Assembly: GCA_024228555.1 (NCBI GenBank)
Contig: JAAETI010000377.1
Span: 36,379-100,378 of the forward strand
Direction: 5' to 3'
Length of the DNA stretch: 64,000 nucleotides
DNA from: a bacterium
Lineage (GTDB): Bacteria > Actinomycetota > Acidimicrobiia > Spongiisociales > UBA5794
Part shown: positions 45,298 to 59,812 of the stretch, in pieces
Layout of the letters: the number at the start of each line of letters is the position of its first letter
Position numbering within the stretch: position 1 is the first letter of the stretch
Notes under the pieces: generated by a model
Database searches by the model: none
The model's input: only the letters and a program-made list of their open reading frames with translations
What the model was told of the DNA's origin: nothing
Translations under genes and position numbers: made by a program

Positions 45298-45353
45298 GGT
45301 GCTGCGACTACTGGCAGCGGCGAAGGTCTACCACGTAGGGGTTCCATGTCGAT

Positions 45354-45374
45354 GTATTACGTATTACGATATTG
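45354..45374 (+). promoter_or_regulatory. Tandem heptamer repeat (GTATTAC x2, then GATATTG) at the brnT start
   Basis: GTATTACGTATTACGATATTG immediately precedes and overlaps the TTG start. Confidence 0.3.
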
Positions 45375-45641
45375 AGATGTGGAAATCTATTGGACAGCAC
45401 ACAACCACGGCATCGACGCACCGCCATTCTCCATGCGATCAGCAACGCCATTACCATCATCGACCTTGAGCCCGAAGCCGACCCGCCCAGAGTGCTCGCC
45501 ATTGGAGCGGACCACGCCGGGAACCTCCTTGAGATCATCCGGCTTGAACTCGCCGACAGGGCTGAGCTGGTGATCCACGCGATGCCGCTGCGTCCCTCCT
45601 TCTACGACCTGCTCCCGTTCCCCGGTGAGGAGTCACTATGA
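45372..45641 (+). CDS. brnT: BrnT-like (DUF497) ribonuclease toxin; N-terminus ambiguous
   Basis: C-terminal RVLAIGADHAGNLLEIIRLELADRAELVIHAMPLRPSFYDLL matches the DUF497 core. An N-terminal-like IYW...HGID segment appears in a different frame (GTG at 45379). Confidence 0.5.
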   Translation: MRCGNLLDSTQPRHRRTAILHAISNAITIIDLEPEADPPRVLAIGADHAGNLLEIIRLELADRAELVIHAMPLRPSFYDLLPFPGEESL

Positions 45642-45919
45642 CCGACAAGAACCTCCACCGTACCCAAAGTGGCCGCACCCTCAGCGAGGGTGAACTTGAT
45701 CGACTTGCCGTCGAGGTAGAGGAAGCCGAATACGACATCGATGCTCTCAAGACCCGGCGTCGCGGGCGTCCCCCGATGGGATCGGGACCGGCAGACGTCG
45801 TGCCGGTTCGGATCGATCCTGAGCTGAAAGCAGCGATCGAAGCACGAGCTGAAACGGACCACACCACCACCAGCGAAGTCATCCGTGAGGCAATCCGCCG
45901 CTTCCTGCATGTCGCTTGA
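45638..45919 (+). CDS. brnA: BrnA-like RHH antitoxin
   Basis: RRGRPPMGSGPADVVPVRIDPELKAAIEARAETDHTTTSEVIREAIRRFL. ATGA overlap with brnT. Confidence 0.6.
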   Translation: MTDKNLHRTQSGRTLSEGELDRLAVEVEEAEYDIDALKTRRRGRPPMGSGPADVVPVRIDPELKAAIEARAETDHTTTSEVIREAIRRFLHVA

Positions 45920-46252
45920 GCTCAACCAGCCCGATCGCCAATTTCGTGGTCGAGCGGCCACAGGATCGTGAGCCCAGGAAACAGCAGGGCCAACGAATCG
46001 TTGCTGGCCTCCGGGTCGATGAATGTCCCCGCGTGAGGATGACTCAGCGGAACGCCAGCTCCTCCCAGATCCCCGGGACAAGAGCGAGGAGCAAGACGAT
46101 CTATTGCTCCTCGCGGATCAGCACACCGAGATCGGCGATTCGGAAAACGCGCTAGTTCCGGAGCCGTGCTGGGCTCGGGTCAAGAGGGGTTGGGAGACTT
46201 AGCAGTCATCTCACTTTCGCCTCATCCAAATTCCCGGCCGTGGCGGTGCTCG

Positions 46253-47851
46253 CTAGTTGCCCAACCGTGCGTAGGTGGCCGTCATGGCGCCATCAGTGAT
46301 GGTGCGGGTGTCGTCGGTGTTGACGTTGAGGGTGACGATACGACCGTCCGGCTGAGGGCACAGCAGTCGCCCATCATGGAACTCGGTGTGACCACAGGGC
46401 TCGCCGATCTGATGACCGTCGTCGGGTATTGCAACCTCCCGCTCGTAGCTATCGATGGTCTCCCCGCTCAAGGGGTCAAGCAGCTCGGTGGCGATGTATT
46501 GGAAGTAGGGGTCGGAACCGGCATCGGGCTGCAAGAGACGGAACGTATCGATGCGGATGAGGTCCTGGCCGTCCAGATGGACCATTGCATCAGGAACGAC
46601 CATACGAGTCCAGAGCTCAGCGCCGTCGAGGTCGCGGGCCTCTATCGAGTCCGATGCTGTGCGGAGTGTCACATACGCGGCACCCAGTCGTCCCGAGGAC
46701 GCTTGTGGGCCGACGACCACCCGGTCGCCGCTGTCGAGATCCAGCGTGGCTGATCCGTCGGGCCCGCTGACAAGTGCCAGACTCCGGTCATCCACGATTC
46801 CGACGTCCAAGATGTCTTCCCCATTTTGCAGCGGAACCTCGGTGCCATCCACCAAGACCCGGTCTGGCTGATTGGTGGTCTGAGTGATGAACCTGCCGTC
46901 GACGTAGAAGGCCCGAGCAGTCGGTTCTGTGGAAATGACTTGAGAGGTGCCGTTGGCATCGTGGAGCACCACCCCATCGGGTCCGGCGCTAACTATCCAG
47001 GGCGCACTGGGTGGCCGCACTTTGAGCGTGAAGCAAAATGGGTCCGGTTCCCAGAACGGAGAACACAGGGCGTAGTCGCCATCTGAGATGATGTCGGGGA
47101 TCAGGACTGTGTCCGGGCCGGGCCCGGTGACGACAACTGCCGGATCCACGGTGGCCTCATGCCAGGGCTGCCACGATGCTGGGGAAGTGTCCGTTTGGGC
47201 GGTGAGCAGGTGCGAAGCGAACCGTCCCAGGCCGTCCGGCCATCCAACGATGAGGTACTGATTGGTGCGCTGCCGCCCCTCGGGTACCTCAAACGACAAC
47301 AGCTGCCCGGCTGCTGCGAGTGGCAACTCGCCGAGATCCTCTGGTGATTGCGGTCTGGTGAACACGAGCTCGGTATTGTCGCCGCCAAGCACGAGATCGG
47401 GAGACTCGGATTCGATCCGGTAGAGCCTGAGGAACGCCTCGTCGAACAGGATGGATGTCTCTGACAATGTCCCACAGCCGATGGCGGTTACCACCGGTTC
47501 ACCGACGTTGAACGCACCCTCACCCGTCTCGAGTTCGGCGTAGGCGCGGTTGCAGTTCATTGGGTAGTCGATGCGCCCCGGAGTGATCACCATCACAAAC
47601 CCGCCGGTCGTGGCATCGGCGAACTGGTTGCCATCGAGCGTCCCGGACACGAGCCGCCAATTGCCGTTGATACCTGACGTATCGGCGACGGTACTGGTCA
47701 CGCCGGTGTTTGGCGGCGATGAGGTCTCGGGAGGCGCCACCACTCCGGCCGGCTCGTCGGTTGAACCACGCAAAGCGAGCAGAACTCCGCCAACGAGTAC
47801 GAGTACCGCGGCAAAGGTGACGGCTCCGATGAGGGCAGGGCGACGGCTCAT
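46253..47851 (-). CDS. Membrane-anchored protein with a META/HslJ-like (DUF306) domain and a large beta-rich C-terminal domain
   Basis: N-terminal TM. NGNWRLVSGTLDG...MNCNRAYAELETGEG...TAIGCGTL resembles the META domain pattern (GCN..y......T.maC). Confidence 0.45.
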   Translation of the reverse strand: MSRRPALIGAVTFAAVLVLVGGVLLALRGSTDEPAGVVAPPETSSPPNTGVTSTVADTSGINGNWRLVSGTLDGNQFADATTGGFVMVITPGRIDYPMNCNRAYAELETGEGAFNVGEPVVTAIGCGTLSETSILFDEAFLRLYRIESESPDLVLGGDNTELVFTRPQSPEDLGELPLAAAGQLLSFEVPEGRQRTNQYLIVGWPDGLGRFASHLLTAQTDTSPASWQPWHEATVDPAVVVTGPGPDTVLIPDIISDGDYALCSPFWEPDPFCFTLKVRPPSAPWIVSAGPDGVVLHDANGTSQVISTEPTARAFYVDGRFITQTTNQPDRVLVDGTEVPLQNGEDILDVGIVDDRSLALVSGPDGSATLDLDSGDRVVVGPQASSGRLGAAYVTLRTASDSIEARDLDGAELWTRMVVPDAMVHLDGQDLIRIDTFRLLQPDAGSDPYFQYIATELLDPLSGETIDSYEREVAIPDDGHQIGEPCGHTEFHDGRLLCPQPDGRIVTLNVNTDDTRTITDGAMTATYARLGN

Positions 47852-48356
47852 GCGACGCTCGGAGGTCGGCTACCGCTACGGAATGCAGGCCAAAGCATGA
47901 CCATGAGTATGTCTCTTCCCGCCGTCAATGCGAATCCGTTTTCACTCACATACCGATCAGACGTTTCAGGTGTCGGCTTTGGTTCCGGCTGTCAGGTGCT
48001 TCTGGCTACAGACTGCCTGCTACGGATCGGATGGTGTGATTGCATCAGCCTCGGTCAGCAACTCTGCAAGTACGACGAGGATGATGGCATCGAGATAGCG
48101 AAACCCGATGCTGGCAGAACCCATCTTGACCTTGCCGAGCCGGTCGGCGTATTGCTGCCCCAGGTAGGCGCCGGTTTGGCATCGCCTGTGTGATCAACTC
48201 GTCGACGGTCTGCATGACGGCCCGGTCAGTCTCGTCGAGTGGATCGATGTGGTCGCTGGGGTCGGTGTCGACAATTTCGATGTGCTCGGCCCTACTTCGA
48301 ACGCAAGAGAGGCGACGCCGGTGGCACCGCCTCTCTAGGTTCGATTGTCTGGATGC

Positions 48357-49280
48357 CTACTGGGTCGGGCTCTCGCCGTCCTTGTTGAACATCTCGCCGA
48401 TCGCTCCAATGGATCCGAGGATTCCGCTCATCTCCATCGGGAGGAAGATCTTCGTGGCGTTGCCGTTGGCGACACCTTGGAGAGCGTCCAAGTACTTGAT
48501 GGCGATGAGGTCGTCCGTCGGATCTCCGTTGTGGATAGCGTGGAAGACCCGCTCGATAGCCTGTCCTTCACCTTCGGCGACGGTCAGCTTCTGGAACTTC
48601 TCAGCTTCGGCGACCTGCTTGATAGCTTCGGCCTGACCTTCAGCTTCGAGGATCCGAGATGCCTTGACACCTTCTGCCTGAAGAATCTTGGAGCGCTTGT
48701 CACCCTCGGCCTCAGTAACGATGGCACGACGGTCACGTTCCGCCTTCATCTGGCGGTGCATGGCCTGGGTTACGTCTGCCGGCGGATCGATCCTCTGGAT
48801 CTCAACACGCACGACCTTGGTACCCCAAACGTCTGTCGCTTCGTCAAGGATCTCACGCAGCTGGGCGTTGATCCTCTCACGAGAGGTGAGTGCATCGTCC
48901 AAGTCGAGGTCACCGACTACGTTACGCAGGTTGGTCTGTGCCAACTTGGTAGCAGCCAGGACAAAGTTCTGGACGTTGTAGACCAGCTTGACCGGGTCGG
49001 TGGCTTGGTAATAGACGACGGCATCGACGGTTACGACGACGTTGTCCTTGGTGATGACCTCTTGCGGGGGAACGTCTACGACGATCTCACGCATGTCGAC
49101 ACGGCGAATTCTCTCGATGAACGGAACAATGAGCTGGAGACCTGGGTCGAGCGTCTCCTTGTACTTGCCGAACCGCTCAACAAGCCCTTGTTCGTGCTGT
49201 CGCACGATCTTGAGCCCGAGCACGACGTAGGCGACGATCAGCGCAATAAAGGCGATGACTATGAAGCCAGCTTGCTGCAT
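48357..49280 (-). CDS. SPFH/band-7 (stomatin/QmcA-like) protein
   Basis: N-terminal TM. SPFH core (KIVRQHEQGLVERFGKY...KDNVVVTVDAVVYYQ), then a coiled-coil tail. Confidence 0.85.
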   Translation of the reverse strand: MQQAGFIVIAFIALIVAYVVLGLKIVRQHEQGLVERFGKYKETLDPGLQLIVPFIERIRRVDMREIVVDVPPQEVITKDNVVVTVDAVVYYQATDPVKLVYNVQNFVLAATKLAQTNLRNVVGDLDLDDALTSRERINAQLREILDEATDVWGTKVVRVEIQRIDPPADVTQAMHRQMKAERDRRAIVTEAEGDKRSKILQAEGVKASRILEAEGQAEAIKQVAEAEKFQKLTVAEGEGQAIERVFHAIHNGDPTDDLIAIKYLDALQGVANGNATKIFLPMEMSGILGSIGAIGEMFNKDGESPTQ

Positions 49281-49306
49281 GTTTTACCCTTTCCCTTGTT
49301 TCGTAA

Positions 49307-50104
49307 TTAGATCTCTGTCGGTTCTACAACCATGCGGGCACCGCGTACATCGACGACGGTGATCTTCGTGCCGACCTCGATTACCTGGTCATAGTCGGCC
49401 ATGGCTCTCCACTGCTCTGTCTCGACCCGAACCCGTCCCGTTCCGCCGGTGCGGTCGATCTTCTCGGTGACAATGCCTTTTGCATCCACGTACCTCTTGG
49501 CACCGACCGGGTGCAGGACTTCCTTGTCTTTCTTGGCGAAGCGTTTGATCCCAATGAGGGCCAGGATGCTGAAGACCGCAAAGGAGACTAGTTGGACGAT
49601 CGGGTGTGCCCCGACCAGAGCCAACAGTGCTGTGAGGACAGCCGCTGCAGCGAACGGAAGCAGGAAGAACCCTGCTGTCAACATTTCTCCGATGCCCAGC
49701 ACGACGGCTGCGCCTACCCATAGCCACAGCCAAAACTCTGTACTTTCCACTGCTTCCTCCTTTGTCATAAAACCTATTGCGACTGTCGCCAGACCTACCG
49801 CGAAGAGCCCTGCCGCTATGAGCCGGCTCTTGGTTTGACTCTGGCGACGTTGGATCCGCTGCCAGGACTCTACGGCTTCCGGTGAACGGAACTCTGACGC
49901 CCAGGTCTCGGCGAATGAAGCGAGATCAGTACCAACGACGGCCTGGGGATCTTTCCCCGCGGCAACTGCTTCATAAAGATGCGATTCGAGCTCGAGCTTC
50001 ATTGCGGTTGAGACGGACCGCGGCACCTTGGTTTCTAGCCAATAGCGCTCACAATCGGACGTTATCTGATTGATGCTCAGGCGGTCAGTCACTCGAGTCT
50101 CCAT
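49307..50104 (-). CDS. Fusion protein: PadR-associated N-terminal domain (DUF1700/HAAS-like) plus NfeD-like membrane/OB-fold domain
   Basis: The N-terminus (SINQITSDCERYWLETKVPRS...LESHLYEAVAAGKDPQ) is typical of genes downstream of padR. Middle has multiple TM. C-terminal OB-fold GRVRVETEQWRAMADYDQVIEVGTKITVVDVRGARMVVEP is NfeD-like. Confidence 0.55.
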   Translation of the reverse strand: METRVTDRLSINQITSDCERYWLETKVPRSVSTAMKLELESHLYEAVAAGKDPQAVVGTDLASFAETWASEFRSPEAVESWQRIQRRQSQTKSRLIAAGLFAVGLATVAIGFMTKEEAVESTEFWLWLWVGAAVVLGIGEMLTAGFFLLPFAAAAVLTALLALVGAHPIVQLVSFAVFSILALIGIKRFAKKDKEVLHPVGAKRYVDAKGIVTEKIDRTGGTGRVRVETEQWRAMADYDQVIEVGTKITVVDVRGARMVVEPTEI

Positions 50105-50417
50105 TCAACACCTCTTCTACGCCGACCGACAATCGCCTCCATTCGGCTTGCCAGTCAGATAATTGATTTCGGCCTTTCTCAGCGATCCGGTAGTACTTCC
50201 TTGGGGGACCGCCGGTCGACTCGACAAAATATCCCTCGATGAACTCCTGCTTCTGCAATCGGCTGAGCAGTGGATAGATGCTCCCCTCGCTTACGAGCTC
50301 GAGGCCGTTGCTTTGCAGCTTGTCGACCATCTCATACCCGTAGCTCGGTTCTTGATCTATCAATGCCAGCAGGCACATATCGAGAACACCTTTGAGTAGC
50401 TGGGAGCTGTGCCCCAC
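50085..50417 (-). CDS. PadR-family transcriptional regulator
   Basis: LKGVLDMCLLALIDQEPSYGYEMVDKL...GSIYPLLSRLQKQEFIEGYF is canonical PadR. Confidence 0.8.
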   Translation of the reverse strand: MGHSSQLLKGVLDMCLLALIDQEPSYGYEMVDKLQSNGLELVSEGSIYPLLSRLQKQEFIEGYFVESTGGPPRKYYRIAEKGRNQLSDWQAEWRRLSVGVEEVLNGDSSD

Positions 50418-50580
50418 TCGCGTCCTCCGAGTTTGTCTTACTATCTTGCTCTACCCGTTACCTTGCGGTCCAGAGTACCTTGTGTAACACACTACCATGG
50501 AAAGCAGGGTAGGTCAATGGGGTTTGTGAAACCTTTATCGTTGTGGAGGGTCAAAATGGAGCAAGACTCGAGAAACGAGA

Positions 50581-51216
50581 ATGGCAGTGGCTGAATCATC
50601 CAAGAGGGCCGGCTCAATAGTCATCGCGGCCGTATTGATCGCAGGTCTCTTCTTCCTGGGCGCCAACCTTGCCGGTTGGTCACCGCTGAAGGGTCTTGGG
50701 GGAGAGCCGTATACGCAGGTTGGGCCCACTGTTGTCGACAGCGTTAGAGACGTCGCCAAGCTGACCACGGTTGAGATGGTGGAATACACCACGGTCGAGA
50801 AGGGCAATGACTTTGGCTGGCTGAACTGGGCACGTGGCGACCGGATCTTCTTGTTTGCCGTCGCCCGGATTGGTGCGGGCGTCGACATGCAGCGGGTGTC
50901 CACGTCGAACTTCGAAGTCGATGAGGACACCGGACGCGTAACGGTTCAGCTACCTCTCCCCGAGATCATCTTTGTAGAAGTCGACAACGACGGCACCCAG
51001 GTATACGACCGCGACACCGGGCTGTTCACCAAGGGAGACTCCCAACTGGAATCTGATGCGAGACAGGTCGCAGAAGAGGTGCTGGTCAACGCGGCCCTCG
51101 ACCACGGCATCATGGACAAAGCGCAGAGCAACGCCGAAGAGACCATCTCTAGTTTCCTCAAGGGCGTCGGCTACACCGAGGTCGTGTTCATCGACCCGGA
51201 CCCGGTTGACGGTTAG
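50581..51216 (+). CDS. Membrane-anchored hypothetical protein (DUF4230-like, low certainty)
   Basis: N-terminal TM (IVIAAVLIAGLFFLGANLAGW); no catalytic motifs. Confidence 0.4.
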   Translation: MAVAESSKRAGSIVIAAVLIAGLFFLGANLAGWSPLKGLGGEPYTQVGPTVVDSVRDVAKLTTVEMVEYTTVEKGNDFGWLNWARGDRIFLFAVARIGAGVDMQRVSTSNFEVDEDTGRVTVQLPLPEIIFVEVDNDGTQVYDRDTGLFTKGDSQLESDARQVAEEVLVNAALDHGIMDKAQSNAEETISSFLKGVGYTEVVFIDPDPVDG

Positions 51217-51218
51217 AC

Positions 51219-51403
51219 GGGAACCTCGAAGACTCGGTTCCTTGGGAGAATGGGAACCTCGAAGACTCGGTTCCTTGGGAGAATCCGTTGGATTCTCCAT
51301 CTCGAACAGCAGCTTGTGTGTCTGGCTTCCCGCTAGAGGGGAACCTCGAGGACTCGGTTCCTTGGGAGAATCCGTTGGATTCTCCACCTCGAACAGCAGC
51401 TTG
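51219..51403. repeat. Composite tandem palindromic repeat array (minisatellite): 33-bp unit A x3 and 32-bp unit B x2
   Basis: Unit A = GGGAACCTCGAAGACTCGGTTCCTTGGGAGAAT at 51219, 51252 and 51339 (one A>G variant); it contains the GGAACC/GGTTCC inverted repeat. Unit B = CCGTTGGATTCTCCA(T/C)CTCGAACAGCAGCTTG at 51285 and 51372. The A|B junction forms a GGAGAATCC-GTT-GGATTCTCC hairpin. Confidence 0.85.
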
Positions 51404-51419
51404 CTCTACCTAACAGTCA

Positions 51420-51980
51420 CTAGACCAAGGCGGCGAACGCTTGCCTGATCATGTCGGGCAGCGACTCGTCAGGGTCGGCATCGTGCCAGTGCTCGATTGC
51501 GGCGTCGAGTGTGGCCATGCAGACACCGGCGAGAGTGTCGTCGACGATGCTTGGTGTCTTGCGTCCGGCAACGAGAGCAAATCCGGCAGCCAACGCGTCG
51601 CGGTCCTTGAGATCCTGTTCAATCGCTGCGGCATGAACAGGCGGGTTGGCATAGATGAAGCCGACTCGGCGTCGTAGCGCCCTGCTTGTTTCCTCGTCGG
51701 AAAAGGCCTCCATCAATGAATCGCGAAACGCAATGAGCGGTGGCTGCTTGCCGATGCGTTCCGCTAGCTCGTCCGTGATGTTCCGGTCTGCCCCGTCCCA
51801 GATGACCAGATTCTCCTTGGTGCCAAAATAGCGATAGATGGTGGAGGCCGAAACACCTCCGGCTGCAGCGACATCATCAATGGTGACGGTGTCGAAAGCC
51901 GCAGCCTCAAAGAGATCGAGAGCGGTTGACTGTAGTTCTCGCATCGTCCGGGCTCTGTTGCGTTGTCGTAGGGAACCCAT
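51420..51980 (-). CDS. TetR-family transcriptional regulator
   Basis: HTH region VTIDDVAAAGGVSASTIYRYFGTKENL. Divergent from the membrane protein at 52052. Confidence 0.75.
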   Translation of the reverse strand: MGSLRQRNRARTMRELQSTALDLFEAAAFDTVTIDDVAAAGGVSASTIYRYFGTKENLVIWDGADRNITDELAERIGKQPPLIAFRDSLMEAFSDEETSRALRRRVGFIYANPPVHAAAIEQDLKDRDALAAGFALVAGRKTPSIVDDTLAGVCMATLDAAIEHWHDADPDESLPDMIRQAFAALV

Positions 51981-52051
51981 CCGCTAATGATAGCAGCTCA
52001 CAAAATGACAGTGACTTGCAGATGGGTAGTGAGTTGCCGTATCATGTGCCA

Positions 52052-53152
52052 ATGACGGTAAGAACGCAACCCAAGACGCAGGGTCGGATTCTCGGGCTCG
52101 ATATCGCCAGGGCCTTTGCCATTGTTGGGATGGTGATCGTCAACTTCAACGTGGTGATGAGCGGCGATGTGGTCGCTCCCCCTTGGCTGGATTTCGTGGT
52201 CACGGCGCTCGAGGGGCGTGCAGCGGCGACATTTGTCGTGCTTGCCGGTATCGGGGCAAGCCTTGGCTCGCGGCGGGCTCGTGAAGGTGACGACCCGGCC
52301 GCAAAGGCATCCGCACGGACCGTCCTCGCCAAGCGTGCTTTGTTCCTCTTTGTCGCAGGCTGGCTCTTTTTCCCGATCTGGCCTGCCGACATCCTGCACT
52401 TCTACGGGCTATATCTGGCGATCGGCTCGCTGCTTCTCTTTGCCCCCGATCGCACTCTGCTACGGGCCGGGCTGCTGGCGACCGCTGTCTCGTTTGCGTT
52501 CATCGTGGGGTTCGATTTCTTCGCAAACTGGAACATTGGTGACCTCTCGTACCGGGGCATCGCAACGCCGGTCGGGTTCCTCCGCAATCTCTTCATCGAC
52601 GGGATCCATCCCGTCCTACCGTGGATCGTCTTCTACCTGTTTGGTATGTGGCTGGGCCGTACCGACCTGCGTGATCCGCGATGGCGCCGCCGGATCGTCT
52701 TGTGGTCCGCTGTTGCGCTGGTAGCTGTCGAGACCGCAGCACTGCAGATCTTGGGGCCAAAGGGCTCAGTGCCCGCCGGTGTCACCGACGACAGCTGGCG
52801 ATGGCTGTTCTCCGTCGAGATGTTGCCGCCGATGCCCGCCTATCTCGTGGCCGGGATCGCAACCGCATGTCTGTGGATAGTCGGTTCGATGTGGCTGGGT
52901 GAGCGCTTATCTCGTCGCAGTCTCGAGCCGCTCGTAGCAACGGGTCAGCTGGCGCTCACTCTCTATGTCGCCCACGTCGTCGTCGGTCTCGGCGTGCTCG
53001 AGGCACTGGGCCGGATCGAAGGCCAGACCTTGCCGTTCATCGTCGTCGCGAGCCTTGTCTTCAGCGTGGCCGCCGGAGCCGCATCCTGGTGGTGGCGACG
53101 CCATCATGACCGCGGTCCGCTTGAGGGCCTGATGAGACGGATTGCCGGCTAG
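52052..53152 (+). CDS. Multi-pass membrane protein (DUF418/DUF1624, acyltransferase-3/YeiB-like)
   Basis: [22 protein letters not shown]-terminal motif typical of DUF1624/HGSNAT-like proteins; about 9 TM. Start set at ATG 52052. Confidence 0.55.
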
Positions 53153-55725
53153 CCAGCCTCGAACCCGAGTGATTCGCCGTCGACAACCACCGTGATGGTG
53201 TCGCCGTCGGTGAAGCGGCCCTCGAGCAATTGCAGCGCCAGCTTGTCGGCGATCTCTTTCTGCATGAGCCGCTTGAGGGGACGGGCGCCAAAACTAGGGT
53301 CGTAGCCATGCTCTGAGAGCCAGGCCGCAGCTTCGGGAGACAACTCGAGCTCGATGCGTCGGCCCGCCAGTCGCTGGCCGAGCACCTCAAACTGGATGTC
53401 GACGATCTGGCGCAGGTCATCCTTCGAGAGACGGGAGAACACGACGATGTCATCGACACGATTGAGGAACTCCGGCCGGAAATGAGTGCGCACCTCCTCC
53501 AGGACCCGTGTCTCGACGGTCTCGTCGGGAAGATCGGGATCGATGAACTCCGACCCCAGGTTCGACGTCATGATCAGCACCGTATTCGTGAAGTCGACAG
53601 TCCGACCCTGGCCGTCGGTGAGCCGACCATCGTCCATGAGCTGCAAGAGGGTGTTGAACACGTCGGGGTGTGCCTTCTCGACTTCATCAAGGAGAACGAC
53701 CGCATAAGGGCGGCGCCGCACTGCTTCGGTGAGTTGACCACCTTCGTCGTACCCAACATATCCCGGAGGGGCGCCGATGAGGCGGCTCACCGAGTGCTTC
53801 TCCATGTACTCCGACATGTCGATGCGGACCATGGCGCGCTCGTCGTCAAAAAGGAAGTCGGCAAGGGCTCGCGCCAGCTCGGTTTTCCCAACTCCGGTCG
53901 GGCCCAAGAAGATGAACGATCCTATTGGACGGTTCGGATCCGAAAGACCGGCTCGACCGCGTCGTATTGCATTGGCTACAACGGTGACCGCCTCGTCCTG
54001 CCCGACGACCCTTTGGTGTAGATGCTCCTCGAGACGAATTAGCTTCTCAACTTCACCCTCCATCAGACGGGTAACGGGAACACCGGTCCATCGGCTGACG
54101 ACCTGGGCTACGTCTTCCTCGTCTACCTCTTCTTTGAGCATCCGCAGATTTGACTGCAGCTTCATCAGCTCGTCTTGGCGCCCTTCCAGCTGTTGCTGCA
54201 GTTCCGGCAGTTTGCCGTAGCGAAGCTCGGCAGCTGCCTGCAGATCGCCGGAACGTTCAGTGCGCTCGGCTTGGGCGCGAGCTTCCTCGATGTCCTGTTT
54301 GGCGGTCTGGATGGCGTCGATGTGGTCCTTTTCGAGTTGCCAGTGCGCGGTGAGGCGGTCGAGTTCCTCGCCAAGACCAGCGAGTTCCTCATCGATCCCG
54401 GCCAAGCGAACTTGCGATGCATCGTCGTCTTCCTTGCTCAATGCATTGCGCTCGACCTCGAGCTGACGTCGTCTTCGCTCGAGCTCGTCGATCTCTTCCG
54501 GCATCGAGTCGATCTCGATGCGGAGTCGTGATGCCGACTCGTCGATGAGGTCGATGGCCTTGTCGGGAAGATGGCGAGCGGTGATGTAGCGATCGGACAG
54601 TACTGCGGCGGCGACAATCGCCGAGTCGGTGATACGCACCCCATGATGAACTTCGTAGCGCTCCTTGAGGCCGCGCAAGATGCCGATGGTGTCTTCGGCG
54701 GTGGGTGGCTCAACCACGACTGGGGCGAAGCGGCGCTCCAGGGCGGGGTCCTTCTCCACGTACTTGCGGTACTCGTCGAGAGTGGTTGCACCGATCAGGT
54801 GTAGTTCGCCTCTTGCCAACATTGGCTTGAGCATGTTGGAAGCATCCATCGAACCCTCAGCCGCACCTGCACCAACAATCGTGTGCATCTCGTCGATGAA
54901 GGTGATGACACGGCCTTCAGCGGCTTTGATCTCGTCGAGGGTTGCCTTGAGGCGTTCCTCAAACTCGCCCCGATATTTGGCGCCTGCCACCATCGCCCCC
55001 AGGTCGAGCGCGATGATCCGCTTGTCCTTGAGTCCCTCGGGGACGTCGCCGTCGACGATGCGTTGTGCAAGGCCTTCAGCGATCGCGGTCTTGCCGACAC
55101 CGGGTTCGCCAATGAGTACCGGGTTGTTCTTGGTGCGGCGGTTTAGCACTTGGATAACCCGGCGGATCTCCTCATCACGACCGATTACGGGATCGAGTTT
55201 CCCTTCGGCTGCGAGTTTCACGAGGTCACGCCCAAACTTCTCGAGTGGATCGAGGGTGTCCTCGGGGTTCTGGCTGGTGACGGTCTGTGCGCCGCGCACC
55301 GTTTCCAGCGCAGCCATGATGGCGTCTCGGGTGAGACCGGCGTTGCGCATTGCGTCGCCCGCGGGGTCGGCGGCGGTGGCGAGAGCCAGCAGGAGATGTT
55401 CGATCGAAACGAACTGGTCACCCATGCCGGTCTTGATCGACTCTGCAGTGTTGAGAATTGTCAGGGCGGCGGGGGAGAAGGCGATTTCGCCGGCATCACC
55501 GTATACCTGGGGGATGGCGCTCAGTCCGCTATCGACGGGACTGCGCAGCGATGCTGGGTTGATGTCCATATGTCCCAAGAGCGGATACAGGATCGTGTCG
55601 GTTTGACCAAGGAGAGCATCCAGCAGATGGAAGGGTTGGACGGTCTGGTGGTTGCGGGTTTCGGCGCTTTGCCGGGCGCCTAGAACCGCCTGTTGTGACT
55701 TTTGGGTGAGTGCGTTGATATCCAT
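53149..55725 (-). CDS. clpB: ATP-dependent chaperone ClpB
   Basis: Two AAA+ modules ([21 protein letters not shown]) and the middle coiled-coil domain; 858 aa. Confidence 0.95.
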
Positions 55726-55799
55726 GGAAGAATGGTTCCCCTGGGTATGTTGTTATCTACACGGAGATACTATCACATCCATACAAGAAATCTAAGTCT

Positions 55800-56273
55800 A
55801 TGACTATCAAGTTCGGCGAGAGCTTCTACAAACGAGGCGGATGGTGGGTTGTCGCCCAATTCGCTCTGTTTGGCCTGATATTGCTTGCTCTGCGGTGGAA
55901 CGAGGACCCTGCAGTCTGGCTGCAGGTGTTGGGTTGGGTTGCCGTTGCGGTCGCCGTGGTGCTCGGTGGCAGCGCGGCCTGGTTGATTCGTCGCAAGATC
56001 ACCGCGATGCCGGCTCCCGTTGATGATGCGGTCCTGTTTGAGATCGGGCCCTTTGCGATAGTGCGTCACCCGATCTATGCCGCCGTAATCACCGGCTTTG
56101 TCGGACTCTCGATCAAGGGTGGCAACCTTGCCGCGCTGGCCTTGTCGCTGCTATTGATCCCCTTCTTCTATGCCAAGACCGTGCATGAGGAGAAGTTGCT
56201 TGCAGCCCGATTCGCCCAGTACGACCAATATCGGGAACGAGTGCCTTCCCGCATTCTGCCCTGGGTCCTGTAG
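55800..56273 (+). CDS. Isoprenylcysteine carboxyl methyltransferase (ICMT/PEMT)-family membrane methyltransferase
   Basis: 4 TM and the C-terminal motif AIVRHPIYAAVITGFVGL...EEKLL. Confidence 0.7.
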   Translation: MTIKFGESFYKRGGWWVVAQFALFGLILLALRWNEDPAVWLQVLGWVAVAVAVVLGGSAAWLIRRKITAMPAPVDDAVLFEIGPFAIVRHPIYAAVITGFVGLSIKGGNLAALALSLLLIPFFYAKTVHEEKLLAARFAQYDQYRERVPSRILPWVL

Positions 56274-56368
56274 ATCTGAGGTATTCTCTCACCTGTCGGA
56301 ACCTTCCAGGTGGGTTCTGGGTCATAGCCCCGAGTACATTTCCGAATGTTCAAAACAAGGAGTGGGAA

Positions 56369-56755
56369 TTGAAGAAGATCTTCAGGGAATTCAAGGACTT
56401 TGCGTTCGGCGGCGACATCATCCAACTGGCTGTTGCCTTTGTCATGGCGGCCGCCTTTGGCGCCCTCGTTGCGGCTCTGGTCGATGCGATCATCATGCCC
56501 ATCGTCGGCATCATCTTTGGCAAACCGACGTTCGATAGCCTTACGTTCTCGATCAACAACTCGATCGTGTTCTACGGTTCGTTCATCACCGCAGTGGTCA
56601 AGTTTCTCGCTGTGGCCCTCGGCGTATTCTTCTTCATCGTCAAGCCCTACAAGGCCTATCAGGCTTCGCAGGCTGCTGCGGAAGAAGAAGCACCAGCCGA
56701 GCCGTCAGACGACATCAAGCTGCTGACAGAGATCCGCGACGCTCTCAACAGGTAA
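56369..56755 (+). CDS. mscL: Large-conductance mechanosensitive channel MscL
   Basis: AAGGAG SD 5 nt before TTG at 56369. KEFKDFAFGGDIIQLAVAFVMAAAFGALV is the MscL N-terminus. Confidence 0.85.
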   Translation: MKKIFREFKDFAFGGDIIQLAVAFVMAAAFGALVAALVDAIIMPIVGIIFGKPTFDSLTFSINNSIVFYGSFITAVVKFLAVALGVFFFIVKPYKAYQASQAAAEEEAPAEPSDDIKLLTEIRDALNR

Positions 56756-56866
56756 CCGACGAGCAACCACGAAGCGGGACCCGGCAACTGCCGGGTCCCG
56801 CTTTTCTTGGAATGAATCAACCCGGTGTAGTCGTTGAAGCACCGTAGGTCGGACAGGGAGCAGAAG

Positions 56867-57151
56867 ATGGCCAGAGCAACATGGAACGGCGTCGTTATCG
56901 CCGAGAGTGACAACACAGTCGTCGTCGAAGGGAACCACTACTTCCCAAAGGACAGCCTCGTGCAAGAGCACTTTGCGGAGAGCTCATCACAAACACGTTG
57001 CCCGTGGAAGGGTCTGGCCAGCTACTACGACGTTGTCGTTGACGGGCAGACCAACAGTGGTGCCGCCTGGTACTACCCAGATCCGAAGCCGGCCGCCGCC
57101 GATATCAAAAACCACGTCGCGTTCTGGCGGGGCGTCTCGGTCGAGGGCTAG
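56867..57151 (+). CDS. DUF427-domain protein
   Basis: AGGGAG SD before ATG at 56867. WNGVVIAESDNTVVVEGNHYFPKDS...CPWKGLASYYDV is the DUF427 signature. Confidence 0.6.
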   Translation: MARATWNGVVIAESDNTVVVEGNHYFPKDSLVQEHFAESSSQTRCPWKGLASYYDVVVDGQTNSGAAWYYPDPKPAAADIKNHVAFWRGVSVEG

Positions 57152-57153
57152 AG

Positions 57154-58116
57154 CTAGGTACGCAGCCCTGCGGTTGCGTTGACCAACTCACGGTGCAACT
57201 GGCGAACCTCGAATTGCGACCAGTCCTCGGATTCGGCACGCAGGAACGACGTCAGATCGGGACGGTTGTCGAACACCCCGGTGGGGATGGCAAAGCGCTC
57301 TTCGCCCTTGTCGATGAAGACAAAGCTCCCACCGCCAAGTGCCAGCAGCCACATCAGGTCGTCGATGCCGTACTCGCGGCGCATCACGGCCTCGGGAACT
57401 CCATGGTGCAAGATGGATGCGTCGCCATCGCGGCCGGGGACGGCTCGCTCCCGGTTCTTGCGGCGACTGTCCTCGGGCTCTACCCACACGTAGAGGATCG
57501 AGGCCTTCTCAAGGATCTCGTCGCTGAGCAGAGACAGAGCGTGCTGGTAGCCGTAGGGGGCCGGCAGTGGGAGCTCTGATCCTTCCGGTCCACCTCTGGC
57601 GAACTCAATGACGACGGTTTTTCCGTCGAGGTCCTCAGGAATAGCGGCGAGCTTGTCATTGAAGACTTCCTGGGCCTCATGCTCGAGTGCGCTCAGTAGT
57701 CGCTTCTTCGTCATGGGGCGGAGATCGGCGATAGCTGGGGCGAGACCGGCCAAAGCACGAGCTCGATCGATCCGGTCGAACAGCCACTCTGCTGCAGTGC
57801 CCGTGACCAGCTCACTAGGTGGGTCAGTCAGCTCGGCGTAGTCGAAGTTGACCAGATGGATGAGTGTGGACCAGTCGCCAGAGTCGAGAAACGGCTCCTC
57901 GCTCGCGTTGAAGAAGACCGGGTTATCTCCCGCCTCTTGGACCTCCTCGGCGATCCGTCGCATCATGTGGACATATGGGTAGTCATCAAGCTGGACCGTT
58001 GGCCCGATGTGCAGGTCGTGAAGCGCCGCAGCAGGATCGAGTTTCTCCATATAGCGGCGAAGCTCTGACTTCCCGGATGCGGGGAGCGCCAGTAGCAGCA
58101 GGGTTTTGATGGCCAT
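57154..58116 (-). CDS. P-loop kinase-like hypothetical protein (variant Walker A)
   Basis: MAIKTLLLLALPASGKSE has a Walker-A-like ASGKS with Ala replacing the first Gly. The ORF-track start at 58251 is rejected because it is Arg-rich low-complexity. Confidence 0.4.
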   Translation of the reverse strand: MAIKTLLLLALPASGKSELRRYMEKLDPAAALHDLHIGPTVQLDDYPYVHMMRRIAEEVQEAGDNPVFFNASEEPFLDSGDWSTLIHLVNFDYAELTDPPSELVTGTAAEWLFDRIDRARALAGLAPAIADLRPMTKKRLLSALEHEAQEVFNDKLAAIPEDLDGKTVVIEFARGGPEGSELPLPAPYGYQHALSLLSDEILEKASILYVWVEPEDSRRKNRERAVPGRDGDASILHHGVPEAVMRREYGIDDLMWLLALGGGSFVFIDKGEERFAIPTGVFDNRPDLTSFLRAESEDWSQFEVRQLHRELVNATAGLRT

Positions 58117-58268
58117 GGCATGACAATAACCAACCCGCCGCTCGCCTTCGCCACCACCGCGCTTTCGATGGTTGCGACGTCGCGGGCGGACTCGGTCTAT
58201 GAACCATTTCTGGATACTCTCCCGGCAACTGCCTTGGCCAGTGCGGGCCAATCAGGAGTGATGAGACT

Positions 58269-58949
58269 ATGGAAGGGATCGCATCGGGTAACGTCCTGGT
58301 CATGCTCCCTCTACGAATTGTCGAAACCGACAGACCTGAATTTGATGAACCGGTTGTGGAACTGTGGCGTGACGACGAGTTCGTCGGCATGGTGTTCTGG
58401 GACGGCGAAGAGTCCATCGTGCAGATCTATCCCGGTGGCGCCGGTGATGTCCACGACATCGAGATCGGCGATCTGCTTCGGGTTCTTGACCTGGCGGCTC
58501 GGATCGTTACCCCGTTGGATCAGCAGCCCGACGATGACGGCGGCGAGTATCTGCAGGCCTTCAACGAAGGTGTTCCCGATGGCGAGTGGGACGAGGAGGA
58601 CCCAGCAACGAGTGCGCTGACCGCGGAGTTCGACTCCAGCGTGGTGTTCCGGGCGGAGGACGGCGAAGGGTTCTTCAATCGTGACACGGCTCTTGAAATT
58701 GTCGAGAGATGCGAACAGCTTGGTCTGGCAGTTATCGAAGTCGACGGGTTCGATCTCGAGGGTGCGGTTCTGATCCCGCGTGCCGAGCTGGGGCTTGTCA
58801 TCTCTGCCCCCGGCGACATCGGATGGGGAGTGCGAGCCGCTGCAGCCAATGCGCAGGTCCGCTCAGCTCTCGAAGCGTGGCCGTCACGGCCGAGCCTCGT
58901 TGCCGCCCTGTTGATTCAGCAATCAGATGGTGAATCCTTCGTCGCCTGA
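58269..58949 (+). CDS. Hypothetical acidic protein
   Basis: Coding-like composition; no motifs recognised. Confidence 0.35.
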   Translation: MEGIASGNVLVMLPLRIVETDRPEFDEPVVELWRDDEFVGMVFWDGEESIVQIYPGGAGDVHDIEIGDLLRVLDLAARIVTPLDQQPDDDGGEYLQAFNEGVPDGEWDEEDPATSALTAEFDSSVVFRAEDGEGFFNRDTALEIVERCEQLGLAVIEVDGFDLEGAVLIPRAELGLVISAPGDIGWGVRAAAANAQVRSALEAWPSRPSLVAALLIQQSDGESFVA

Positions 58950-58965
58950 TCGGGGAGTGTGGGGC

Positions 58966-59361
58966 CTAGGGGGTACCCATGAAGGCGAGTCCGACACCTG
59001 CGCCCATGTACAGAAGCCCGGCCAGCATCGGCAGATTGGAAACCGCTGTCTCCACACGTGACGACTCCCAGTCGTAGCCGTTGCGGAGGACGTGGGCGAA
59101 CGAGAAGATGATGGGTCCGATCACCAACATGAATAGGCCGAATCCGATGAGGAAATTCCCGCTCATTGTCGTCGGGCTGACCGGGGAGCATTCACTACCG
59201 CGGGTGATCTGACCGCTCATGCCGACAGTCGGCCTTGCATTGATGCGATTGCAGAGATCGAGCCAATGCGGCTCAAAGAGCAATCCAGCGACAGCTGCCG
59301 CACCGAGTCCTGTGACGAACAGCAGGGGCCGTCGGATCAGCGGACGTCGTAGCAGAGCCAT
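58966..59361 (-). CDS. Hypothetical small membrane protein
   Basis: 3-4 TM segments; no motifs. Confidence 0.35.
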   Translation of the reverse strand: MALLRRPLIRRPLLFVTGLGAAAVAGLLFEPHWLDLCNRINARPTVGMSGQITRGSECSPVSPTTMSGNFLIGFGLFMLVIGPIIFSFAHVLRNGYDWESSRVETAVSNLPMLAGLLYMGAGVGLAFMGTP

Positions 59362-59406
59362 AGTTCAATAGTACGGGATGCCCTCAATACCGGGAAGGGG
59401 CTGCAG

Positions 59407-59811: not shown

Positions 59812-59812
59812 G

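What the first reader, a model, noticed from the sequence alone, without database searches (positions are those of the whole stretch)
51217..51419. Composite tandem palindromic minisatellite between convergent genes
There are two perfect tandem copies of a 33-bp unit (GGGAACCTCGAAGACTCGGTTCCTTGGGAGAAT), a third copy with one A>G change, and two copies of a 32-bp unit (CCGTTGGATTCTCCAYCTCGAACAGCAGCTTG). The arrangement is A-A-B-spacer-A'-B'. Each A has an internal GGAACC/GGTTCC inverted repeat, and each A|B junction forms a 9-bp-stem hairpin. The array is MIRU/REP-like (VNTR potential, stacked bidirectional terminators, possible protein binding). It is neither CRISPR-like (no uniform spacers, no cas) nor coding.
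Basis: seen in the sequence. Interest (0 to 1): 0.6.

Follow-up and report, generated by a model that had tools for sequence, protein, structure and literature searches.

The report
Amplified double-hairpin gene-end repeat
The tandem repeat is real: it is a locally amplified copy of a small two-hairpin element that, in related uncultured marine actinobacteria, sits right at the 3' end of tRNA genes, most likely marks or protects transcript ends, and changes copy number between near-identical strains.

Summary
A copies lie at 51219-51251, 51252-51284 and 51339-51371; B copies lie at 51285-51316 and 51372-51403. The array sits between a DUF4230 gene (+) and a convergent TetR gene (-).

A and B are not two independent repeats. 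A is hairpin H1 (GGGAACC-N10-GGTTCCT), a TG linker and the 5' arm of hairpin H2. B is the 3' arm of H2 plus a locus-specific tail.

H1-H2 is a ~50-nt module with no Rfam match. It recurs in metagenome contigs of ~60% GC, immediately after five different tRNA genes (Lys, Tyr, Leu, Pro, Ala), always in the sense orientation and often in tandem. Both stems covary: 98% of cells are paired, six pairs change on both sides, and 0 of 500 shuffles reach this.

A MAG 99.5-99.9% identical over 15.9 kb lacks exactly one 87-bp period, so the array behaves as a VNTR. At the orthologous tRNA-Pro locus, one relative has a canonical-looking terminator hairpin where this element sits.

Best reading: a lineage-specific, REP/TRIT-like structure at transcript 3' ends, acting as a terminator or exonuclease barrier and amplified by slippage. 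The function is inferred, not shown. A selfish mini-element or a hairpin recognised by a sequence-specific factor cannot be excluded.

Verdict: a new member of a known kind, of moderate interest.

The parts
50581..51216 (+). Upstream gene, a DUF4230 protein. Its TAG stop is 2 nt before the first repeat.
   Evidence: ORF list, translation, Pfam PF14014 E=9e-29, orthologues.
51217..51218 (+). 'AC' dinucleotide preceding the first unit. The same AC (discriminator A + C74) precedes the element after every tRNA gene that carries it.
51219..51251 (+). Unit A1: hairpin H1 (51219-51242, GGGAACC / 10-nt loop / GGTTCCT), TG linker, and an orphan 5' arm of H2 (51245-51251). This is a truncated module.
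   Evidence: CM R1 partial hit 51217-51246, 38.6 bits.
51252..51298 (+). Complete module 1. H1 is 51252-51275. H2 is 51278-51298 (GGAGAATCC GTT GGATTCTCC), spanning the A2|B junction.
   Evidence: CM R1 hit 51250-51300, 50.9 bits, E=4e-10.
51299..51338 (+). Locus-specific tail of B (ATCTCGAACAGCAGCTTG, 51299-51316) plus a 22-nt spacer ending in CTAGAG. Together with A2 and the H2 arm of B it forms the 87-bp period (51252-51338) that is absent in the sister MAG.
51339..51385 (+). Complete module 2 (A' + B'). H1 is 51339-51362, with the loop variant GAGGAC. H2 is 51365-51385.
   Evidence: CM R1 hit 51337-51387, 50.2 bits.
51386..51419 (+). Tail of B' (ACCTCGAACAGCAGCTTG) plus 16 nt up to the TetR stop. 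With the stop codon the region ends ...CACTAGAC, repeating the TAGAC found left of the array (51214-51218).
51420..51980 (-). Convergent downstream gene, a TetR-family regulator with an MftR-like C-terminal domain.
   Evidence: L018 annotation.

Best explanation
The array is a local amplification of a lineage-specific, ~50-nt two-hairpin RNA-structure module.

The module has three parts. H1 is GGGAACC, a conserved 10-nt loop (TCGAAGACTC), then GGTTCCT. A TG linker follows. H2 is GGAG, a variable stem-loop, then CTCC.

In related uncultured actinobacteria (Acidimicrobiia-like, ~60% GC, at least partly from marine sediment) the module sits at the extreme 3' end of transcription units. Most often it directly follows the discriminator base plus C of a tRNA gene.

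It is transcribed as the 3' trailer of the upstream gene and folds into two adjacent hairpins. These most likely define or protect the transcript's 3' end. They would do so either as a U-tract-less terminator or pause hairpin, or as a barrier to 3'->5' exonucleases after downstream termination. Between the convergent DUF4230 and TetR genes the palindromic hairpins can form on both transcripts.

The tandem structure (A-A-B-spacer-A'-B') arose by slipped-strand or unequal recombination between the repeated GGGAAC.../GGGAG... segments, and it is still changing between strains.

Shown: the repeat, its family, the tRNA-end association, strand bias, covarying stems, copy-number change, and positional equivalence to a terminator hairpin. 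Inferred: the molecular function, and the slippage mechanism.
For: Family and location.
- A degenerate H1 pattern found the module right after tRNA-Lys(ttt), Tyr(gta), Leu(cag), Pro(tgg) and Ala(cgc) genes on independent metagenome or MAG contigs.
- The junction is identical each time: acceptor arm, A, C, then GGGAACC.
- It is often tandem: 4 units in L003, about 2.5 in L005/L027, 2 in L029.
- All ~7 independent contexts, including the window, have the module on the sense strand of the upstream gene.

Structure.
- On the CM-based alignment of 20 distinct copies, 98.2% of cells pair.
- Six of 15 pairs change on both sides (22 cells). 0 of 500 shuffles reach this, and slid controls reach at most 65% paired.
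- Orthologous loci show compensatory changes: tRNA-Ala H2 is TTGC/GCAA versus TTAC/GTAA; tRNA-Leu H2 is TTAC/GTAA versus CTGC/GCAG, and H1 is GGAACC/GGTTCC versus GCAACC/GGTTGC.
- G.U pairs (the invariant closing pair of H1, and H2 in L028 and L005b) are valid only on the sense strand.

Terminator slot.
- At the orthologous tRNA-Pro locus, L033 has ...ACCA followed by a GC-rich hairpin and a T-rich tail.
- L031 has a different hairpin there, and L007/L009 have this module.
- In every case a convergent methyltransferase gene follows.
- Canonical U-tract terminators are not enriched in the window (12 found versus 13.2 expected), as in other actinobacteria.

Dynamics.
- L018 is collinear with the window over 15.9 kb at 99.5-99.9% identity.
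- It differs at this locus only by the absence of one 87-bp period.

Precedent. Conserved-sequence hairpins at gene ends are known in mycobacteria as TRIT (PMC3152330). 3' hairpins without a U-tract have been proposed as stabilisers or 3'-end definers (PMC3993855).
Against: - There is no U-tract after either hairpin.
- H1 is a weak hairpin (7 bp, 10-nt loop).
- Mycobacterial RNAP needs a U-tract to terminate in vitro (PMC3993855).
- TRITs overlap poorly with mapped 3' ends (bioRxiv 10.1101/2022.06.01.494293).
- H1, including its loop, is much more conserved in sequence than a simple hairpin function requires.
- Two CM-detected relatives lie in 16S-23S spacers antisense to the rRNA (L008, L014). 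That does not fit a purely sense-RNA role.
- No expression data exist.
- Folding energies are only 1.4-3.7 SD better than shuffles.
- The covariation alignment was fitted to the model (caveat).
Confidence: 0.55

Rival explanations
1. A selfish, non-autonomous mobile mini-element (REP/MITE-like). It inserts at a preferred target, the A^CCA end of tRNA genes and look-alike sites, and any effect on transcripts is incidental. The array reflects repeated insertion or amplification.
For: - It is present at non-homologous sites and absent from orthologous ones. tRNA-Pro lacks it in L031 and L033 but has it in L007/L009. DUF4230 loci L019, L020, L023 and L025 lack it.
- Removing the element restores ...ACCA at tRNA-Pro (L007: CTCC-AC|CATCG) and tRNA-Tyr (L004: CTCC-GC|CAAAG).
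- The window array is bounded by TAGAC...TAGAC followed by CAAGG.
- Both orientations occur in rRNA spacers.
- It is carried next to the att core of an integrase island (L013, L015), which offers a route for spread.
- Contigs often break at it (L001, L006, L007, L030).
Against: - There are no terminal inverted repeats.
- There is no clean empty site with conserved flanks. The downstream sequence differs wherever the element is absent.
- The 'AC' or 'TAGAC' duplications are short and could be chance.
- Density is low: one locus in 64 kb and no diverged copies.
- No transposase or RAYT was seen nearby.
- Compensatory changes at orthologous loci show long-term maintenance of the structure.
Confidence: 0.2
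2. A hairpin recognised by a sequence-specific factor. H1 would be the binding or cleavage site for a lineage-specific RNA-binding protein or RNase. Examples are a tRNA 3'-maturation signal for CCA-less precursors (RNase Z or another endonuclease), or a termination factor that reads the hairpin. Alternatively, the released trailer itself could be a small RNA.
For: - H1 is nearly invariant in sequence, loop included, across loci whose H2 has diverged completely.
- The element begins at a fixed position, 1 nt after the discriminator, in all five tRNA families.
- All element-bearing tRNA genes lack a full encoded CCA.
- The authors of the TRIT paper proposed a dsRNA-binding factor for a comparable motif (PMC3152330).
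- An unexplained palindrome about 10 bp after half of the tRNA genes in M. kandleri is a loose analogue (PMC5217627).
Against: - The window copy follows a protein-coding gene, not a tRNA.
- H1 can be replaced by quite different hairpins at the orthologous tRNA-Leu locus: L028 has GAGAACGCC/GGCGTTCC and L029 has a perfect 11-bp stem.
- Other CCA-less tRNAs lack the element (L031 tRNA-Pro, L009 tRNA-Gly).
- No candidate protein was identified.
Confidence: 0.12
3. A DNA-level site: a recombination or attachment-site component (an integrase arm-type or accessory site), or an operator for a dimeric DNA-binding protein such as the adjacent TetR.
For: - H1 is an inverted repeat (GGGAACC N10 GGTTCCC/T) of the size bound by HTH dimers.
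- In L013 and L015 the element lies between a tRNA-Ala att core and a tyrosine-integrase gene.
- L004 shows element pieces interleaved with tRNA 3' fragments.
- The window array marks the edge of a TetR+acyltransferase segment that is absent in L019, L020, L023 and L025.
- Both orientations occur in rRNA spacers.
Against: - Most copies (tRNA-Leu/add, tRNA-Pro/methyltransferase, tRNA-Lys/VapBC, the window) have no integrase nearby.
- Covariation that preserves pairing, and G.U pairs that are strand-specific, point to a folded single strand rather than duplex recognition.
- The array lies at the 3' end of TetR, not in its divergent promoter.
- The same TetR+acyltransferase pair in L028/L029 is not flanked by the element.
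Confidence: 0.06

Closest known systems
TRIT (Tuberculosis Rho-independent terminator motif) of Mycobacterium (Gardner et al. 2011, PMC3152330)
   Same: It is a conserved-sequence, structured palindromic motif in an actinobacterial lineage that is poor in canonical U-tract terminators. It lies tightly at gene termini, often between convergent genes, is usable on both strands, and is lineage-restricted. A sequence-specific factor has been suspected. Its function is not demonstrated.
   Different: The sequence here is unrelated, and no Rfam or other model match was found. TRIT is one long hairpin starting about 8 nt inside the coding region, with 147 dispersed single copies. The present element is two hairpins with a hypervariable second stem. 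It starts 2 nt after the stop codon, or 1 nt after the tRNA discriminator. It is mainly tRNA-associated, low in density, and prone to tandem amplification.
REP / BIME elements of enterobacteria and pseudomonads (established knowledge; Stern et al. 1984, cited in PMC3993855)
   Same: They are short extragenic imperfect palindromes at 3' ends of genes and between convergent genes. They are transcribed, stabilise upstream mRNA against 3' exonucleases, and occur in clusters.
   Different: REPs carry a conserved GTAG head. They occur in hundreds of copies. They cluster in alternating orientation (BIMEs) and are mobilised by RAYT transposases. Here the copies are direct tandem repeats, no GTAG is present, only one locus occurs in 64 kb, and no RAYT was seen.
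MIRU-VNTR loci of Mycobacterium tuberculosis (established knowledge)
   Same: They are intergenic minisatellites of tens of bp, dispersed at multiple loci, with copy number varying between closely related strains. The unit lengths here (33, 87) are multiples of three.
   Different: MIRUs lie between co-directional genes of operons and carry short ORFs that overlap the flanking stop and start codons. They are not defined by hairpins. Here the genes are convergent, the units are hairpin modules, and the family is mostly attached to tRNA genes.
Terminator abutting a tRNA 3' end, e.g. E. coli leuX (Mohanty & Kushner 2010, cited in PMC3993855)
   Same: A hairpin directly follows the tRNA and must be removed to mature the 3' end. 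This shows that a structured trailer flush with a tRNA is workable.
   Different: leuX has a canonical Rho-independent terminator after an encoded CCA, and it is a unique sequence. Here the same conserved module is shared by at least five tRNA genes that lack a full CCA, and it has no U-tract.
Pneumococcal BOX elements (boxA-boxB(n)-boxC) (established knowledge)
   Same: They are modular composite intergenic repeats with a variable number of internal sub-units. They form stable secondary structure and affect neighbouring gene expression.
   Different: The sequence and host are unrelated. BOX elements are about 100-300 bp with three module types, number more than 100 copies per genome, and are not tied to tRNA 3' ends.
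Palindrome CGTTA-N9-TAACG about 10 bp downstream of half of the tRNA genes in Methanopyrus kandleri (PMC5217627)
   Same: It is a conserved spaced palindrome at a fixed distance after many, but not all, tRNA genes of one lineage. Its function is unknown, and a role in 3' maturation has been speculated.
   Different: The host is an archaeon and the sequence is different. It is a single palindrome, and neither tandem arrays nor copies after protein genes have been reported.

Membership tests
REP/BIME | Short (20-40 nt) imperfect palindrome in extragenic DNA, typically at gene 3' ends | tested here: met
   H1 (24 nt) and H2 (19-21 nt) hairpins between convergent genes and after tRNA genes.
REP/BIME | Conserved 5' GTAG tetranucleotide and an associated RAYT transposase | tested here: not met
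   Units are preceded by AC / TAGAC / TAGAG, not GTAG. No transposase-like gene appeared in the gene lists of the window neighbourhood or related loci. A whole genome was not available.
REP/BIME | High copy number (hundreds per genome), clusters in alternating orientation | tested here: not met
   Only one locus occurs in 64 kb, and there are no diverged copies by nhmmer or CM. Copies within arrays are direct, not inverted.
MIRU-VNTR | Intergenic tandem repeat of 40-100 bp with copy-number polymorphism between strains | tested here: met
   33-bp and 87-bp periods. A sister MAG at 99.5-99.9% identity lacks exactly one 87-bp period.
MIRU-VNTR | Located between co-directional genes of an operon, with small ORFs overlapping the flanking stop and start codons; mycobacterial sequence family | tested here: not met
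   The flanking genes are convergent. Other copies follow tRNA genes. The sequence is unrelated and the host is Acidimicrobiia-like.
Canonical intrinsic (Rho-independent) terminator | GC-rich hairpin immediately followed by a 7-9 nt U-tract | tested here: not met
   Hairpins are present, but H1 is followed by UUGGGAG and H2 by AUCUCGAAC. The consensus scan reports no terminator in the array.
TRIT-like conserved-sequence terminal hairpin | Conserved sequence plus structure, tightly positioned at gene termini, lineage-restricted, bidirectional | tested here: met
   The fixed start is 2 nt after the stop codon or 1 nt after the discriminator. Only one hit was found in 185,579 species-representative genomes, and few hits in metagenomes. 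Hairpins form on both strands. This describes how it resembles TRIT. Sequence homology to TRIT itself could not be tested, because no TRIT model is held in the tools and Rfam gave no hit.
CRISPR array | Uniform direct repeats separated by unique spacers of similar length; cas genes or a leader nearby | tested here: not met
   A1 and A2 are contiguous, the 'spacers' are repeated (B, B'), and there are no cas genes in the neighbourhood.
MITE | Terminal inverted repeats and a target-site duplication; filled and empty sites | tested here: inconclusive
   No TIRs are present: the 5' end is GGGAACC and the 3' end is ...CTCC. Possible short duplications (AC...AC; TAGAC...TAGAC) and restoration of ACCA occur at 3 sites. 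No clean empty site was found at orthologous loci.
Known RNA families (Rfam 15) | Match to a curated covariance model | tested here: not met
   No hit reached gathering score in the window or L001. Only chance-level hits with E>=0.65 occurred around the array. In the tRNA-linked loci only tRNA or tmRNA-like hits were found.

The most novel reading that the evidence does not exclude
The conserved H1 hairpin is not a generic stem-loop. It would be the recognition site of a lineage-specific system acting at the exact 3' end of tRNAs. One possibility is a mini-element that integrates between the discriminator base and CCA: removing it restores ACCA at tRNA-Pro and tRNA-Tyr, and leaves an A^CCA site in the window. 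The other is a dedicated hairpin-reading factor for termination or 3' maturation of CCA-less tRNA precursors, with the window array being an 'escaped' copy after a protein gene.
Probability: 0.15. Interest if true: 0.65.

Novelty: new member of a known kind. Interest (0 to 1): 0.38.

Why it matters
If the reading is right, this is an undescribed, structure-conserved module at transcript 3' ends in an uncultured actinobacterial lineage that lacks canonical terminators. It would be a counterpart of mycobacterial TRIT, with an unusually strict attachment to tRNA 3' ends.

Practical uses:
- It gives annotators a landmark for transcript ends and tRNA trailers in these MAGs.
- It explains contig breaks at tRNA loci.
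- It provides a strain-resolving VNTR marker.

The near-invariant H1 loop raises a testable question about sequence-specific factors in termination or tRNA 3' processing. Otherwise it is an ordinary kind of intergenic repeat, with no sign of a new biological system.

Tried and rejected
- **Known RNA family.** Rfam at E<=10 around the array, and at gathering score over the whole window and L001, gave nothing meaningful.
- **tRNA or tmRNA in the window.** None found.
- **Other copies in the window.** Pattern search with up to 3 mismatches, nhmmer with --max, and a covariance model all found only the three copies of the array.
- **Phage or plasmid origin.** There was no blastn match in 50,697 phage or 72,556 plasmid records, and no pattern hit in IMG/VR.
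- **Coding repeat.** Rejected. H1 reads through as GNLEDSVPWE in one frame and the unit lengths (33, 87) are multiples of 3. However, the element directly follows tRNA genes without a start or RBS. H2 length varies by non-multiples of 3 (units of 51, 65 and 68 nt). Substitutions are compensatory in the stems.
- **CRISPR, type III ToxI-like arrays and integron attC.** Rejected on architecture. There are no unique spacers, no cas or toxN genes, and the convergent neighbour and the RRRAAC...GTTYYY polarity do not fit the attC core sites.
- **ECF-sigma promoter (GGAAC...GTT).** Rejected because the spacing is 12 nt rather than 16-17.
- **TetR+acyltransferase as a mobile cassette bounded by the element.** Rejected. 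The same gene pair in L028/L029 has no element beside it, and its absence in L027 is an internal deletion.
- **Clean empty site.** I looked at orthologous DUF4230 and tRNA-Pro loci. None was found because the flanks are not conserved.
- **Fixed-column MAFFT alignments.** They mis-register the variable H2, so covariation was counted on a CM-guided alignment instead.
- **The window's own contig.** Look-up of the exact DUF4230 protein and of P0001 returned nothing.

Full report
**1.

Reading 50900-51700 shows the described arrangement.
- GGGAACCTCGAAGACTCGGTTCCTTGGGAGAAT occurs twice in tandem (51219-51251, 51252-51284).
- CCGTTGGATTCTCCATCTCGAACAGCAGCTTG follows (51285-51316), then a 22-nt spacer.
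- A third A copy with one A>G change follows (51339-51371), then a second B with T>C (51372-51403).

TRF reports a 33-bp period (2.0 copies, 100%) and an 87-bp period (1.9 copies, 89%). Pattern searches allowing 3 mismatches find exactly these copies and none in 100 shuffles.

The array fills the gap between a DUF4230 gene (50581-51216, +) and a convergent TetR-family gene (51420-51980, -).

Each A forms a 7-bp hairpin with a 10-nt loop (H1). Each A|B junction forms a 9-bp hairpin, GGAGAATCC-GTT-GGATTCTCC (H2). Energies are only 1.4-3.7 SD below shuffles, so energy alone is weak evidence.

**2. What the units really are**

A and B are not independent repeats.
- A is H1, a TG linker and the 5' arm of H2.
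- B is the 3' arm of H2 plus an 18-nt tail.
- The first A copy is therefore a truncated module (H1 plus an orphan half of H2).

The natural unit is a ~50-nt two-hairpin module. It has no match in Rfam. No tRNA or other RNA gene lies in the window.

**3. The module is a dispersed family tied to tRNA 3' ends**

The H1 22-mer occurs once among 185,579 species-representative genomes (L001, an actinobacterial MAG). A looser pattern (GGAACC-N10-GGTTCCTTGGGAG) found 16 metagenome contigs.

Nine loci in total carry the H1 core (eight of these metagenome contigs plus L001); on eight of them the module begins at the same position after a tRNA gene or tRNA 3' remnant: acceptor 3' strand, discriminator A, C, then GGGAACC...
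- The tRNAs are Lys(ttt) in L003, Tyr(gta) in L004, Leu(cag) in L005, Pro(tgg) in L007/L009 and Ala(cgc) in L001/L013/L015.
- Tandem arrays recur. L003 has four units of two sub-types (68, 51, 51 and ~66 nt). L005 has two and a half.
- In the window the first unit is likewise preceded by AC (TAG-AC-GGGAACC).
- Neighbouring tRNAs on the same contigs (Lys-ctt, Leu-tag, Gly, Arg) lack the element.

nhmmer and a covariance model built from seven copies (R1) recover every known copy at 36-80 bits. They find nothing else in the 64-kb window. This is therefore a low-density family, not a genome-saturating REP.

All loci have ~59-63% GC, like the window. The source names given to homologues of the flanking proteins point to Acidimicrobiia/Actinomycetota MAGs.

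**4. The structure is under selection, and the sense strand is the folded one**

H1 is nearly invariant, loop included. H2 keeps only its GGAG...CTCC base. Its interior is TTGC/GCAA, TTAC/GTAA, CTGC/GCAG, AATCC/GGATT, or it carries a nested GGGAACGC-TKC-GCGTTCC hairpin.

Orthologous loci fetched through flanking proteins show compensatory change directly.
- tRNA-Ala: G-C changes to A-T in H2 (L001/L015 versus L013).
- tRNA-Leu(cag)/adenosine-deaminase spacer (L027-L030): H1 is GCAACC/GGTTGC in one lineage, a perfect 11-bp stem in another, and is replaced by GAGAACGCC/GGCGTTCC in a third. H2 stems differ but stay paired.

On the CM-guided alignment of 20 distinct copies:
- 98.2% of cells pair.
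- 6 of 15 pairs change on both sides (22 cells).
- No shuffle of 500 reaches any of the five measures.
- Sliding the partners drops pairing to 65% or less.
- Caveat: the alignment was fitted to the model.

Two observations point to function in the transcript of the upstream gene. The invariant G.U closing pair of H1, and the G.U pairs in some H2 stems, are valid only on the tRNA-sense strand. In addition, all ~7 independent gene contexts have the module in sense.

One complication remains. Two CM hits (34-36 bits) lie in 16S-23S spacers antisense to the rRNA. L014 also has a sense-oriented unit with a different H1.

**5. It sits where terminators sit**

At the orthologous tRNA-Pro(tgg) locus, always followed by a convergent methyltransferase gene:
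- L033 has ...GACCA followed by a GC-rich hairpin with a T-rich tail.
- L031 has another hairpin.
- L007/L009 have this module.

Other convergent arrangements occur: tRNA then integrase (L013), tRNA then adenosine deaminase (L005, L027-L030), and DUF4230 then TetR (the window). This fits a role at transcript ends.

U-tract terminators are not enriched in the window (12 found versus 13.2 expected), as is typical of actinobacteria.

The literature urges caution on mechanism.
- Mycobacterial RNAP needs a U-tract in vitro. U-tract-less 3' hairpins were proposed to stabilise RNAs or define 3' ends after downstream termination (PMC3993855).
- The conserved TRIT hairpins (PMC3152330) overlap little with mapped 3' ends (bioRxiv 10.1101/2022.06.01.494293).

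I therefore describe the function as 3'-end formation or protection, and I mark it as inferred.

**6. The array is dynamic**

A MAG contig (L018, GCA_024223445.1) is collinear with window 45349-61339 at 99.5-99.9% identity. It has only two indels.
- One is the absence of exactly one 87-bp period (A-B-spacer), giving A-A'-B'.
- The other is an unrelated 30-bp indel.

More distant orthologous loci (82-95% DUF4230 identity) lack the array. They also lack the TetR+acyltransferase pair, with DUF4230 running straight into ClpB or LysE.

Partial duplications of the H1 5' arm (L001, L005) and the shared GGGAAC/GGGAG motifs suggest slipped-strand or unequal recombination as the amplifying mechanism. 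This is an inference.

**7. Rivals**

(a) *A selfish mini-element targeting tRNA ends.*
- For: removing the element restores ACCA at tRNA-Pro and tRNA-Tyr. The window array is bounded by TAGAC...TAGAC followed by CAAGG. The element also rides next to the att core of an integrase island (L013 has a full integrase; L015 has a tRNA-Ala 3' half plus the element).
- Against: there are no terminal inverted repeats, no clean empty site and no transposase.

(b) *A hairpin read by a sequence-specific factor, or a tRNA-maturation signal.*
- For: the near-invariance of H1 and the fixed junction.
- Against: H1 replacement at tRNA-Leu, and the copy after a protein gene.

(c) *A DNA-level recombination or operator site.*
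- For: some integrase contexts.
- Against: strand-specific covariation, and most contexts.

(d) *Coding, CRISPR, ToxI, attC and ECF-promoter readings* were rejected on architecture.

**8. Comparison and verdict**

The closest analogue in behaviour is mycobacterial TRIT. REP/BIME, MIRU-VNTR and BOX each share some properties but fail defining features (see the membership table). The tRNA-end association and the single two-hairpin module are the main additions.

This is a new sequence family of a known kind: a structured intergenic repeat at gene 3' ends with VNTR behaviour. Interest is moderate. The open point worth an experiment is why H1 is so conserved and why the element is flush with the tRNA discriminator.

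Noticed in passing
window 56362-56391 versus L018:10921-10926: This is the only other indel between the window and the 99.5-99.9% identical MAG contig L018. It is a 30-bp segment flanked by CAAGGA direct repeats, at the apparent start of mscL (GGAG..TTG AAG AAG ATC TTC AGG GAA TTC AAG GAC). Its loss in L018 removes that start and RBS, so the mscL N-terminus differs between the strains.
   Followed up: partly
L015:2735-2830; L013 (integrase L013:2347-3516, tRNA-Ala 3620-3694); L001:3433-3477: tRNA-Ala(cgc) is an integration hotspot. L013 has the full tRNA, the element and a convergent tyrosine integrase. L015 has only the 3' half of the tRNA (from the anticodon loop on) followed by the element and an integrase remnant, which looks like an att-site duplicate. 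L001 has RHH/MazF-like toxin-antitoxin genes downstream.
   Followed up: partly
L004:300-545 (minus strand): Downstream of tRNA-Tyr and its element lies a second H1 copy with compensatory GCAACC/GGTTGC arms. It is followed by a ~30-nt fragment resembling the 3' end of tRNA-Ala (GAGGTTCAAATCCCCTTACCTCCAC) and then GGGAG.... The region looks like a patchwork of element pieces and tRNA 3' fragments, possibly old recombination scars.
   Followed up: no
L008:2750-2796; L014:2413-2462 and 2472-2518: Related double hairpins (GGAACC-stem-GGTTCC TT GGGAG-stem-CTCC) lie inside 16S-23S spacers. In L008 the unit is 15 nt after the 16S 3' end and antisense to the rRNA. In L014 there is one unit in each orientation, and the sense unit has a different H1 (GCTGCCC/GGGCAGC). 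The H1 stems of L008 and L014 differ by compensatory changes but keep the same CGAG loop.
   Followed up: partly
L008:139-2428: The 23S rRNA match spans the whole Rfam LSU model (positions 1-2925) in only about 2290 nt. This suggests a markedly shortened 23S gene or a mis-assembly in this contig.
   Followed up: no
window 51214-51216/51420-51422 and 53149-53152; L019:5633-5636; L020:6615-6618: Convergent genes in this lineage repeatedly share a 4-nt CTAG overlap, in which TAG on each strand serves as both stop codons: acyltransferase/ClpB in the window, DUF4230/ClpB in L019, and DUF4230/LysE in L020. The DUF4230-ClpB junction is a variable spot. It holds TetR+acyltransferase (window, L018), LysE (L020-L022) or nothing (L019, L023-L026).
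   Followed up: partly
L027:4451-5054 versus L028:2972-4677 and L029:1167-2872: A homologous TetR+acyltransferase (HGSNAT/DUF418) divergent gene pair lies at a different locus in the tRNA-Leu/adenosine-deaminase lineage, next to an SRP-RNA-like sequence. In L027 it is reduced to a 72-aa fusion remnant by an internal deletion.
   Followed up: partly
window 10358-10965, 22965-23388, 36757-37364: There are three diverged (61-84% identity) direct repeats containing a Walker-A-like GGTCC.TCCGG.TC.GG.AA.TC.AC motif. They are most simply paralogous ABC-transporter ATPase genes, not a repeat element.
   Followed up: no
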